A stretch of 1,796 nucleotides of DNA, taken from assembly GCF_003334815.1 (NCBI RefSeq), contig NZ_QOWO01000093.1. One strand, given 5' to 3'. Position 1 is the stretch's first letter. Each line of letters opens with the position of its first letter. A program made the translations under genes and the position numbers. Under the pieces are notes generated by a model. That model was not told where the DNA came from, ran no database searches, and saw only the letters and a program-made list of their open reading frames with translations. Below, one piece after another: positions 1,419 to 1,704 of the stretch. The stretch comes from Escherichia coli (GTDB lineage: Bacteria; Pseudomonadota; Gammaproteobacteria; Enterobacterales; Enterobacteriaceae).

Positions 1419-1456
1419 GGGGTCCGCTTGGAAAAGGGAAATTTTCCCACGCTAAG
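1419..1456 (+). repeat. Left 38-bp terminal inverted repeat (Tn3-family type): GGGGTCCGCTTGGAAAAGGGAAATTTTCCCACGCTAAG
   Basis: Direct read. The GGGG start and CACGCTAAG end match the Tn3-family IR ends as I recall them (Tn21/Tn501 subgroup style). Confidence 0.8.
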
Positions 1457-1514
1457 AGAATTGAGTTGAACGAGTGGTTACATCCAGGCCAGCTAACTCA
1501 CTGAACGTAAAGGC

Positions 1515-1604
1515 TGTACGAAATGTTCCGGCCGTCCGATAACCGTTTGGCTTACTTCCGTACATTCCCTTGCGTAGATGTACAGAATTGTACGATTTCG
1601 GACA
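1515..1604. promoter_or_regulatory. Cluster of TGTAC[A/G] core motifs and TGTNCGAAAT / CGTCCGATAA-like half-sites inside the miniature element; possible recombinase (res-like) or other protein-binding site
   Basis: TGTACG at 1515-1520, CGTACA at 1559-1564 (inverted), TGTACA at 1579-1584 and TGTACG at 1589-1594, all within about 80 bp. TGTACGAAAT (1515-1524) is an imperfect inverted match to ATTTCGGACA (1595-1604), and CGTCCGATAA lies at 1533-1542. The function is inferred only. Confidence 0.3.
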
Positions 1605-1666
1605 CCAAAACCGCTGTTGTCCCGACATTCTGGCGATTCCTGAAAGTCCTTTGACTAAAAAATAGT

Positions 1667-1704
1667 CTTAACGTGGTTTATTTTCCGAATTCCAAGCGGA
1701 CCCC
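1667..1704 (-). repeat. Right 38-bp terminal inverted repeat (Tn3-family type); reverse complement GGGGTCCGCTTGGAATTCGGAAAATAAACCACGTTAAG
   Basis: Direct read and reverse complement. The first 15 bp are identical to the left IR. The inner part, GAATTCGGAAAATAAA...ACGTTAAG, resembles Tn21/Tn501-type IRs as recalled. Confidence 0.8.

What the first reader, a model, noticed from the sequence alone, without database searches (positions are those of the whole stretch)
1419..1704. 286-bp Tn3-family-type miniature element (38-bp IRs, no transposase) next to the partition cassette
Both ends carry 38-bp repeats that start GGGG and end ACG[C/T]TAAG, which I recognise as the Tn3-family terminal IR signature. 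The inner part of the right IR (GAATTCGGAAAATAAA) resembles Tn21/Tn501-type ends as recalled. At 286 bp the element cannot encode a transposase, so it would need one supplied in trans. Such elements can mobilise adjacent DNA or mark past transposon activity on the plasmid.
Basis: partly seen in the sequence, partly recalled or inferred. Interest (0 to 1): 0.6.

Follow-up and report, generated by a model that had tools for sequence, protein, structure and literature searches.

The report
Miniature Tn3-family transposon with resolution site
It is a 286-bp gene-less "passenger" transposon of the Tn3 family, common on E. coli plasmids, that keeps only the two ends and the recombination site of a larger transposon and here marks an old rearrangement of an IncI1 plasmid.

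Summary
Window 1419-1704 is bounded by 38-bp inverted repeats that match at 30 of 38 positions (shuffles 22.9±0.9, max 26) and read GGGG…ACG[C/T]TAAG.

The interpretation also holds. It is a Tn3-derived inverted-repeat miniature element (TIME).
- There is no conserved ORF and no Rfam hit.
- Full-length copies occur in many plasmid contexts: 540 of 5,426 complete E. coli genomes, nearly all on plasmids. Relatives at 69-76% identity occur across Enterobacterales.
- Three independent insertions of the miniature element have 5-bp target duplications. A 3.4-kb cargo-carrying relative has one too.
- An autonomous partner exists, with tnpA (994 aa), divergent tnpR and cargo. Its IR matches the left IR at 36/38.

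New here: the 210-bp interior is colinear with that partner's res site (z≈8-9). It has 26-bp and 32-bp dyad sites whose half-sites are the best-conserved interior columns. It is unrelated to the res of Tn21, Tn3, IS101 or TIME244.

The window copy lacks a target duplication. Its right end abuts a 5'-truncated gene and its left end a deletion junction, so it sits at a rearrangement scar.

It is not IS101, IMU, MITESen1 or TIME244, and I found no name for it. I rate it a new member of a known kind, of moderate interest.

The parts
1419..1704 (+). Whole 286-bp miniature element (TIME): IR-L, res-like interior, IR-R. No gene.
   Evidence: IRs. 100% identical copies occur in 33 or more plasmids. 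570 PLSDB records have at least 80% coverage, as do 540 of 5,426 E. coli genomes. No conserved ORF. No Rfam match.
1419..1456 (+). Left 38-bp terminal inverted repeat (IR-L): GGGGTCCGCTTGGAAAAGGGAAATTTTCCCACGCTAAG. Predicted TnpA binding and cleavage end.
   Evidence: 36/38 identical to the tnpA-proximal IR of the autonomous transposon in L099, L100 and L034. 28/38 identical to Tn21 IRtnp.
1667..1704 (-). Right 38-bp terminal inverted repeat (IR-R). It reads GGGGTCCGCTTGGAATTCGGAAAATAAACCACGTTAAG on the minus strand.
   Evidence: 30/38 to IR-L. 32/38 to both IRs of the autonomous transposon. 31/38 to IMU IRL, 30/38 to TIME244 IRL and 30/38 to Tn21 IRtnp.
1579..1604 (.). Putative res site I (26-bp dyad): TGTACAGAATTGTACGATTTCGGACA. 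Predicted crossover site for a serine resolvase.
   Evidence: Colinear with TGTACGAAACCGACCGGTTTCGGTCA, the tnpA-proximal site in the tnpR-tnpA intergenic region of L056, L099 and L100. Half-site conservation is 0.90-0.91 across nine diverged copies.
1533..1564 (.). Putative res site II (32-bp dyad): CGTCCGATAACCGTTTGGCTTACTTCCGTACA.
   Evidence: Colinear with TGTCCGAAATTAATTTCACTAAGTTTCGGACA (32 bp) in the autonomous res. Conservation is 0.87-0.90, against 0.58 for the 14-bp spacer 1565-1578.
1515..1523 (+). Further resolvase-type half-site TGTACGAAA (site III-like position, on the tnpR-proximal side).
   Evidence: Motif scan. TGTACG is invariant in all 15 aligned copies. Conservation 0.94. 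It aligns with the TGTCCGAAT half-site of the autonomous res.
1705..1796 (+). Right flank: the 3' part of a 196-aa hypothetical gene whose 5' 405 nt are missing here. The breakpoint is exactly at the IR-R end.
   Evidence: The gene is intact in L004 (CDS 2596-3186; window 1705 corresponds to L004 3001). PGAP annotates the same stretch in L011 as 'partial, missing N-terminus'.
1361..1418 (+). Left flank downstream of the parB-like gene and its iterons. The junction is TAATA|GGGG.
   Evidence: In L010 and L101 the same flank continues TAATAGGGGGTTCTACGCCGG with no element. In L101 the element lies 182 bp further on. The window junction therefore looks like a deletion ending at the IR, with GGGG microhomology.

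Best explanation
Window 1419-1704 is a non-autonomous miniature transposon of the Tn3 family, a TIME (Tn3-derived inverted-repeat miniature element). It keeps three things from a larger transposon: the two 38-bp terminal inverted repeats and the internal resolution (res) site. The transposase gene, resolvase gene and cargo have been lost.

**How it works (inferred from Tn3-family biology).**
- A Tn3-family DDE transposase supplied in trans by an autonomous relative binds both IRs.
- It drives replicative paste-and-copy transposition, giving a cointegrate and a 5-bp target duplication.
- The partner's serine resolvase, or RecA, then resolves the cointegrate at the element's res site.
- Intramolecular events, or recombination between copies, delete, invert or swap flanking DNA.

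**What is shown.**
- The IRs are real and match those of an autonomous transposon.
- The interior is homologous to and colinear with that transposon's res.
- The unit recurs in many contexts, some with target duplications.
- It has no coding capacity.

**What is inferred.**
- Actual mobilisation.
- Resolvase binding.
- Which transposase acts on it.

**This copy.** It has no target duplication. Its right end is fused to a 5'-truncated gene and its left end to a deletion junction. It therefore marks a past rearrangement between the IncI1 parAB cassette and the colicin Ia region. It remains a potential substrate because both IRs are intact.
For: **IRs**
- The IRs are real and non-random.
- IR-L is 36/38 and IR-R 32/38 identical to the IRs of an autonomous transposon. 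The two IRs of that transposon match each other at only 34/38.

**Autonomous partner**
- A genome scan with the IR pattern found 82 stretches, almost all in Enterobacterales.
- Several lie directly beside a 994-aa ORF. That ORF scores 1213 bits on NF033527, 'Tn3 family transposase'.
- A divergent 192-197-aa serine recombinase gene sits next to it.
- This TnpA is at least 95% identical in about 319 PLSDB plasmids.
- The tnpR-res-tnpA module occurs in 67 of 5,426 E. coli genomes.

**res homology**
- The interior aligns colinearly, in one orientation, with the tnpR-tnpA intergenic region. The score is 66 against shuffles of 25-28±4.5, z=7.9-9.4, reached by none of the 300 and 500 shuffles in the two runs.
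- A 26-bp and a 32-bp dyad site match at the same spacing.
- No similarity was found to the res of Tn21, Tn2/Tn3, a TnEc1-family element, IS101 or TIME244 (z≤1.8).
- Half-sites are the best-conserved interior columns, at 0.88-0.94 against 0.58 for the spacer.
- The same half-site words, TGTCCGATAA and CGTACGAAATG, occur in the Tn2 tnpR-tnpA intergenic (res) region read from pEK204 (output); identifying that dyad as site I is from my own knowledge.

**Mobility**
- Copies occur in IncI1, IncI-gamma/K, IncF, ColV, IncN, IncHI and pCROD1 contexts.
- 5-bp target duplications: TATAA (L102, same site as L011b), ACGTA (L013), TAAAT (L090), and TATTA around a 3.4-kb cargo-carrying relative (L007).
- Full-length relatives at 69-76% identity occur in Citrobacter, Xenorhabdus, Cedecea and an Enterobacterales MAG.
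- IS5075, an IS that hunts Tn21-type IRs, is inserted 22 nt into IR-L of one copy (PMC8269217; PMC6052338).

**Not coding, not RNA**
-.
Against: - This copy has no target duplication. Most of the roughly 14 full-length miniature copies inspected lack one as well.
- No empty site exactly matching either junction was found. A search for the expected TATCA left junction found none.
- The host plasmid carries Tn21, whose TnpA is only about 56% identical to the cognate type. I fetched only about 30% of the host plasmid (record 1-35,008 of 117,804 bp); no cognate-type transposase is annotated in that part, and its only Tn3-family transposase is Tn21's.
- Transposition and resolvase binding were not and cannot be tested here.
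- The res homology rests on about 115 aligned nt at roughly 65% identity, plus motif architecture.
- A clear third dyad subsite is not evident. Only a single half-site is seen at the site III position.
- IR-R differs from the cognate IR at 6 of 38 positions.
Confidence: 0.87

Rival explanations
1. The copy is an immobile fossil. It was once a TIME or the collapsed ends of a full transposon. In this IncI1 lineage it is only a scar of an old deletion and is never mobilised again. Its wide distribution reflects plasmid spread and homologous recombination, not ongoing transposition.
For: - This copy has no target duplication, and both flanks are rearranged.
- The identical copy with identical flanks is shared by many IncI1 plasmids.
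- The autonomous partner is about eight times rarer than the element in E. coli: 67 against 540 genomes.
- Most copies lack target duplications.
Against: - Both IRs are intact and close to the cognate IR, at 36/38 and 32/38.
- At least three independent insertions of the miniature unit have perfect 5-bp duplications, in unrelated contexts and genera.
- Precise IR-end junctions with reshuffled flanks are what transposase- or resolvase-mediated intramolecular events produce (Tn3-family biology, own knowledge).
Confidence: 0.3
2. The main present role is as a plasmid recombination site. The res-like interior, placed next to the partition cassette, would serve as a multimer-resolution site or a module-exchange site whenever a compatible resolvase is in the cell. 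The IRs would be incidental.
For: - The interior is homologous to a res site, and its half-sites are conserved.
- The element sits at module boundaries in several plasmid types: parAB/colicin Ia here, pemIK in IncF, cvi in ColV.
- Two truncated remnants break at the centre of the putative site I.
Against: - No resolvase gene is linked to the element in the window or in most copies.
- The IRs are as well conserved as the res sites, at 0.80-0.89.
- The truncated remnants are not res×res hybrids, because their partner halves lack half-site motifs.
- The effect on plasmid stability is untested.
Confidence: 0.12
3. It is a structured inverted repeat unrelated to transposons, for example a terminator, operator or RNA element of the par operon.
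For: It lies 113 bp downstream of the parB-like stop codon, and the arms could pair.
Against: - The arms are 210 nt apart.
- There is no Rfam hit at E≤1.
- There is no terminator- or promoter-like site.
- The same unit occurs away from any par locus.
- The arms match Tn3-family IRs position by position.
Confidence: 0.01

Closest known systems
[quoted passage not shown] 2014, PMC4133298; Gomi & Yano 2026, PMC13367494)
   Same: - About 38-bp Tn3-family IRs.
- 200-300 bp in length, with no transposase.
- Plasmid-borne.
- 5-bp target duplications at some copies.
- An autonomous partner exists.
   Different: The sequence differs from every TIME listed for Enterobacteriaceae. The interior shows no similarity to IS101, IMU, MITESen1 or TIME244. 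It is much more prevalent in E. coli, at 10% of complete genomes with a near-full copy. All four named TIMEs together reach 3.5% of Enterobacteriaceae genomes (PMC13367494).
IS101 (209 bp, pSC101) and TIME244/MITEEc2
   Same: Same architecture of IR, res, IR. IS101 carries a functional gamma-delta-type res, and TIME244 a Tn21-type res (PMC13367494).
   Different: The res here belongs to a different transposon lineage (z≈8 to its own partner, z≤0.3 to IS101 and TIME244). The IRs match at 18-21/38 to IS101 and 24-30/38 to TIME244.
IMU (integron mobilization unit, 288 bp)
   Same: Nearly the same length. IR-R is 31/38 identical to IMU IRL.
   Different: The interior is unrelated (local score 16-18). 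IMU has no recognised res (PMC13367494).
Unnamed autonomous Tn3-family transposon. Examples: K. michiganensis NZ_CP041514.1 (L100 5430-12018: arsC-padR-chrA-tnpR-res-tnpA), Pantoea sp. IMH (L034), V. furnissii (L056)
   Same: - IRs match at 36/38 and 32/38.
- The res is homologous and colinear.
- It occurs in the same host range.
   Different: It is 6.6 kb or more and carries tnpA, tnpR and cargo. The miniature element has lost everything between IR-L and res, and between res and IR-R.
Tn21 / Tn501 subgroup
   Same: - The GGGG…GGAAAATAAA.CACG.TAAG pattern; 30/38 (IR-R) and 28/38 (IR-L) to Tn21 IRtnp.
- The IR is a target for IS5075.
- The cognate TnpA belongs to the same broad clade, at 56% identity to TnAs3 and ISPa38 types.
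   Different: - The res is unrelated to Tn21 res (z=0.2).
- The partner has tnpR and tnpA divergent with res between them. In Tn21 they are adjacent and co-directional.
- The nearest PGAP-named transposase is the TnEc1 family at 72%. Its IRs resemble MITESen1, not this element.

Membership tests
TIME (Tn3-derived inverted-repeat miniature element) | Terminal inverted repeats of about 38 bp related to Tn3-family IRs (GGGG…ACGNTAAG) | tested here: met
   30/38 between the arms. 36/38 and 32/38 to the IRs of an autonomous Tn3-family transposon. 28-31/38 to Tn21, IMU and TIME244. Shuffle control.
TIME (Tn3-derived inverted-repeat miniature element) | Miniature size (50-500 bp) with no transposase or other conserved gene | tested here: met
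   286 bp. The ORFs of 58 aa or less are broken by stops and frameshifts in diverged copies.
TIME (Tn3-derived inverted-repeat miniature element) | Same unit present as discrete copies in different sequence contexts | tested here: met
   Copies in IncI1, IncI-gamma/K, IncF, ColV, IncN and pCROD1, and in other genera.
TIME (Tn3-derived inverted-repeat miniature element) | 5-bp (rarely 6-bp) target-site duplication flanking insertions (family level) | tested here: met
   TATAA (L102/L011b), ACGTA (L013) and TAAAT (L090). TATTA flanks the 3.4-kb relative in L007. Most other copies lack one.
TIME (Tn3-derived inverted-repeat miniature element) | Target-site duplication at the window copy itself | tested here: not met
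   TAATA on the left and TATCA on the right. The flanks are a deletion junction and a truncated gene.
TIME (Tn3-derived inverted-repeat miniature element) | An autonomous Tn3-family element with matching IRs exists to supply TnpA | tested here: met
   L034, L056, L099 and L100 among others. TnpA scores 1213 bits on NF033527. The IR is 36/38 to IR-L.
TIME (Tn3-derived inverted-repeat miniature element) | Mobilisation in trans demonstrated experimentally | not testable with these tools
   Needs a transposition assay.
res-carrying TIMEs (IS101 / TIME244 type) | Interior homologous to the res site of the parental transposon, with resolvase subsites | tested here: met
   Colinear alignment to the partner's tnpR-tnpA intergenic region, z=7.9-9.4. 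Matching 26-bp and 32-bp dyads. Half-sites are preferentially conserved. A complete third subsite was not identified, and function is untested.
Named Enterobacteriaceae TIMEs (IS101, IMU, MITESen1, TIME244/MITEEc2) | Sequence identity of the whole element to the reference (≥95% identity and coverage, as used in PMC13367494) | tested here: not met
   The interiors give only chance-level local scores (13-18; z≤0.3 for IS101 and TIME244). Lengths differ: 209, 288, 256 and 244 bp.
Tn21 subgroup of the Tn3 family | IRs close to the Tn21/Tn501 IRs, and Tn21-type res | tested here: inconclusive
   IRs are 28-30/38 to Tn21 IRtnp, and one is targeted by IS5075. However, the res is unrelated to Tn21 res (z=0.2). 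The cognate TnpA is only 56% identical to Tn21-group transposases.

The most novel reading that the evidence does not exclude
This is an undescribed family of res-carrying TIMEs and their cargo-bearing, transposase-less relatives. It is the most abundant such family on E. coli plasmids. It would act as a portable substrate for transposase and resolvase, and so repeatedly set the module boundaries of IncI and IncF backbones.

The boundaries in question are:
- parAB/colicin Ia in IncI1.
- The pemIK 'integration hot spot' in IncF.
- The cvi end of the ColV operon.

It would do this through adjacent deletions, inversions and exchanges at res site I.
Probability: 0.25. Interest if true: 0.55.

Novelty: new member of a known kind. 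Interest (0 to 1): 0.4.

Why it matters
TIMEs are rarely annotated. None of the plasmid records inspected marks this element (under-match annotation 'none' or only a hypothetical CDS).

Despite that, near-full copies are present in about 10% of complete E. coli genomes, and fragments in about 25%.

Recognising the element explains several otherwise odd junctions:
- The truncated gene beside the IncI1 partition cassette.
- The remnant beside pemK in IncF plasmids.
- The IS5075 insertions into 'a sequence similar to the Tn21 TIR' reported in PMC6052338.

A pair of copies could form a composite able to move intervening genes, as shown for other TIMEs in PMC13367494.

Its res site adds a second route, by site-specific recombination, for shuffling plasmid modules.

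It is an incremental addition to a known class, not a new mechanism.

Tried and rejected
1. **Named TIMEs.** I compared the element with IS101, IMU, MITESen1 and TIME244, using sequences from Table S2 of PMC13367494. Only the IRs resemble them.
2. **Literature.** I searched by size, by name and by the IR sequence itself. No paper names the element. The only hits to the IR string are the cva/cvi PCR primer.
3. **Linked resolvase in L012.** A resolvase gene lies next to an 80%-identical copy there. Its own upstream region lacks the half-site motifs, and the element lies at its 3' end, so I treat the adjacency as coincidental.
4. **TnEc1-family transposon as partner.** This is the nearest PGAP-named TnpA, at 72%. 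I rejected it because its IRs are MITESen1-like and its res is unrelated.
5. **Expected left junction.** I searched for gene…TATCA + IR-L, the junction expected from a simple insertion into the intact right-flank gene. None was found. Only NZ_CP076712.1 has the element in that gene, 85 bp away.
6. **Shared TAATA.** I considered that TAATA on the window's left and on the right of L003 are two halves of one insertion. The L003 flank is a truncated colicin gene, so this is probably a coincidence of AT-rich targets. I did not search further.
7. **pEK204 correction.** I first read pEK204 as a Tn2 insertion into the element. In fact the element is truncated at position 88, followed by 48 bp of other DNA and then the Tn2 IR.
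8. **pemIK composite.** Two inverted copies bracket pemIK in L010. The composite is seen at a single locus only, in 4 records, with no target duplication. Movement as a unit is therefore not shown.
9. **Coding, RNA, promoter and terminator readings.** All were negative.

Full report
**Context**

The window is 100% identical to the IncI1-type plasmid RCS85_pI of E. coli ECOR 3 (NZ_LT985321.1). It contains, in order:
- The 3' end of a Y-family polymerase gene.
- A parA gene (381-1007) and a parB-like gene (1004-1306), flanked on both sides by arrays of 8-bp iterons.
- The feature at 1419-1704.
- 92 nt that belong to the colicin Ia side of the plasmid.

**Observation**

The two 38-bp ends are inverted repeats identical at 30/38 positions, including the first 15. 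They read GGGG…ACG[C/T]TAAG.

Dinucleotide shuffles of the window never exceed 26/38 (mean 22.9, sd 0.9).

**It is a discrete, repeated unit**

- The 286-bp stretch alone hits 2,162 PLSDB plasmids with megablast, 570 of them over at least 80% of its length.
- It hits at least 5,000 plasmids with the more sensitive search, 739 of them over at least 80%.
- Among 5,426 complete E. coli genomes, 1,364 have a match and 540 a near-full copy. 1,631 places are on plasmids and 31 on chromosomes.
- Copies start and end at the same GGGG/CCCC in unrelated surroundings:
  - beside cvi in ColV plasmids;
  - beside pemK in IncF plasmids and pCROD1;
  - in IncN;
  - near katP;
  - in IncI-gamma/K plasmids.
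- Full-length relatives at 69-76% identity occur in Citrobacter, Xenorhabdus, Cedecea and an Enterobacterales MAG.

**Evidence of transposition**

Perfect 5-bp direct repeats flank the following copies:
- The copy in L102 (TATAA). The same site in L011 is additionally split by an IS91-family element.
- The copy in L013 (ACGTA).
- The copy in L090 from Xenorhabdus (TAAAT).
- A 3.4-kb transposase-less relative with the same IRs, carrying a SulP transporter and a universal stress protein gene (L007, TATTA).

Most other copies lack a duplication.

**The partner**

Scanning one genome per species for GGGGTCCGCTTGGAANNNGGAAA gave 82 stretches, almost all in Enterobacterales.

In several, the IR lies directly next to the 3' end of a 994-aa ORF. 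That ORF scores 1213 bits on the NCBIfam Tn3-family transposase model.

A serine recombinase gene (192-197 aa) is transcribed divergently from it, about 160 bp away. It is 30-32% identical to the Tn3 and Tn21 resolvases.

In K. michiganensis NZ_CP041514.1 the whole transposon is 6.6 kb (arsC-padR-chrA-tnpR-res-tnpA).
- Its tnpA-side IR is GGGGTCCGCTTGGAAAACGGAAATTATCCCACGCTAAG.
- This is 36/38 identical to the window's left IR and 32/38 to the right IR.
- The transposon's own two IRs match at 34/38.

This transposase is at least 95% identical in about 319 PLSDB plasmids. The tnpR-res-tnpA module is in 67 of 5,426 E. coli genomes. The miniature element is therefore about eight times commoner than its partner in E. 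coli.

The nearest PGAP-named transposase is the TnEc1 family (72%). Tn21-group transposases are 56% identical. The TnEc1-type element has MITESen1-like IRs and an unrelated res, so it is not the partner.

**The interior is a res site**

The 210-bp interior aligns colinearly, in one orientation only, with the tnpR-tnpA intergenic region of the partner.
- The score is 66 against 25-28±4.5 for dinucleotide shuffles (z=7.9-9.4).
- None of the 300 and 500 shuffles in the two runs reached it.

Two dyad sites correspond in length and order:

| Site | Window coordinates | Element | Partner |
|---|---|---|---|
| 26-bp dyad | 1579-1604 | TGTACAGAATTGTACGATTTCGGACA | TGTACGAAACCGACCGGTTTCGGTCA |
| 32-bp dyad | 1533-1564 | CGTCCGATAACCGTTTGGCTTACTTCCGTACA | TGTCCGAAATTAATTTCACTAAGTTTCGGACA |

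A further half-site, TGTACGAAA, lies at 1515-1523.

By position relative to tnpA and tnpR in the partner, and by analogy with Tn3 and gamma-delta (own knowledge), the 26-bp site would be the crossover site I.

The half-site words are the same as in the Tn2 res region read from pEK204 (TGTCCGATAA / CGTACGAAATG; output).

Across nine diverged copies the half-sites are the most conserved interior columns (0.88-0.94). The 14-bp spacer between the two sites is the least conserved (0.58).

The interior shows no similarity to the res of Tn21, Tn2, a TnEc1-family element, IS101 or TIME244 (z≤1.8).

No ORF is conserved. There is no Rfam match and no promoter- or terminator-like site.

**This copy**

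It has no target duplication.

On the right, homology to an intact 196-aa gene begins exactly at 1705. The intact gene is at L004 2596-3186. The first 405 nt of the gene are absent here. PGAP calls the stretch a partial gene.

On the left, the same flank continues in two other plasmids as TAATAGGGGGTTCTACG… without the element. In one of them the element lies 182 bp further on. The window junction therefore looks like a deletion that ends at the IR.

Junctions that are precise at the IR end but have reshuffled flanks are what intramolecular replicative transposition, or recombination between copies, produces in this family. That step is inference.

The host plasmid carries Tn21 about 24 kb away. 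Whether Tn21 TnpA can act on these ends is unknown.

**Comparison with known elements**

The class is well known. It comprises TIMEs such as IS101, IMU, MITESen1, TIME1-4 and TIME244 (PMC4133298, PMC13367494). IS101 and TIME244 likewise retain a res.

This element is none of those. A full-text search for its IR sequence found only PCR primer tables.

Authors who saw IS5075 inserted in 'a sequence similar to the 38-bp TIR of Tn21' in IncN segments did not recognise a miniature transposon there (PMC6052338). In my IncN example, IS5075 sits 22 nt into the left IR of a copy. ISfinder and TnCentral could not be queried, so an existing name cannot be excluded.

**Verdict**

The element is a res-carrying TIME with an identified partner transposon. 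It is a new, or at least unnamed, member of a known kind. It is very common on enterobacterial plasmids, and here it sits at a rearrangement scar.

**Unresolved**

- Why most copies lack target duplications.
- Why two independent truncated remnants break at the centre of the putative site I.

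Noticed in passing
window 172-260 and 1308-1358 (also 277-371): Arrays of 8-bp units (TTGTTATC / TTATTATC, about 11 and 6 copies) flank the parA and parB-like genes on both sides. Palindromes built on TTAACAACTTAATA lie just upstream of parA. These look like centromere and operator repeats of the partition cassette.
   Followed up: no
L008 6001, L009 11510, L016 3001 (ColV plasmids): The widely used APEC virulence-typing primer cva/cvi-F is TCCAAGCGGACCCCTTATAG (PMC8581539). It is the outer 14 nt of this element's left IR plus 6 nt of ColV flank. 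The assay therefore scores an element-cvi junction, not the colicin V genes alone.
   Followed up: partly
L007 (CP060845.1) 7001-10400: A 3.4-kb unit without transposase or resolvase. It is bounded by the same IRs, carries a SulP-family transporter and a universal stress protein gene, and is flanked by a perfect TATTA duplication. It is a cargo-carrying non-autonomous relative.
   Followed up: partly
L010 (NZ_CP011019.1) 20003-21968; L103 (pCROD1) 2504-2789; L006 2501-2615: Two inverted copies bracket pemK-pemI-CPBP protease. Homology of that module to thousands of IncF plasmids ends at or within 5 nt of the IR outer ends. Ordinary IncFII plasmids keep only element positions 172-286 (84% identity) next to pemK, the region reported as an integration hot spot in PMC6052338. 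The composite is seen at one locus only, without a target duplication.
   Followed up: partly
L006 2501 and L103 1674-1792: Two differently flanked truncated remnants both start at element position about 170-172, the centre of the putative res site I. The adjoining DNA does not look like a resolvase half-site, so the cause is unexplained.
   Followed up: partly
L013 (NZ_OW969880.1) 1656-3265: IS5075 is inserted 22 nt into the left IR of a 72%-identical copy in an IncN plasmid. The copy is flanked by an ACGTA duplication.
   Followed up: yes
L014 (pKFu015_1) 5001-5748: A 748-bp relative with the same IRs and the same first 185 bp as the L013 copy. The rest is replaced by a segment containing a 122-aa ORF of unknown function.
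   Followed up: no
L017-L028 (Photorhabdus cinerea DSM 19724): A dozen loci (L017-L028, ten contigs) of this draft genome carry the IR. In most the IR lies 78-127 nt from a locus end (for at least five, both ends of a whole contig), which suggests a high-copy element with these ends.
   Followed up: no
L002 (pEK204) 5371-5545: In the pEK204 lineage the element is cut after position 88. It is followed by 48 bp of unrelated DNA and then the Tn2 IR with blaTEM-1. The same 1-88 remnant recurs in many plasmids and in one ST131 chromosome.
   Followed up: partly
L106 (host plasmid NZ_LT985321.1) 74-18128 and about 24561: The plasmid that supplies the window also carries a Tn21 with an In2-like integron and a mer operon. 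It also has a Tn1721-type IR next to tet(A), about 24 kb from the element.
   Followed up: partly
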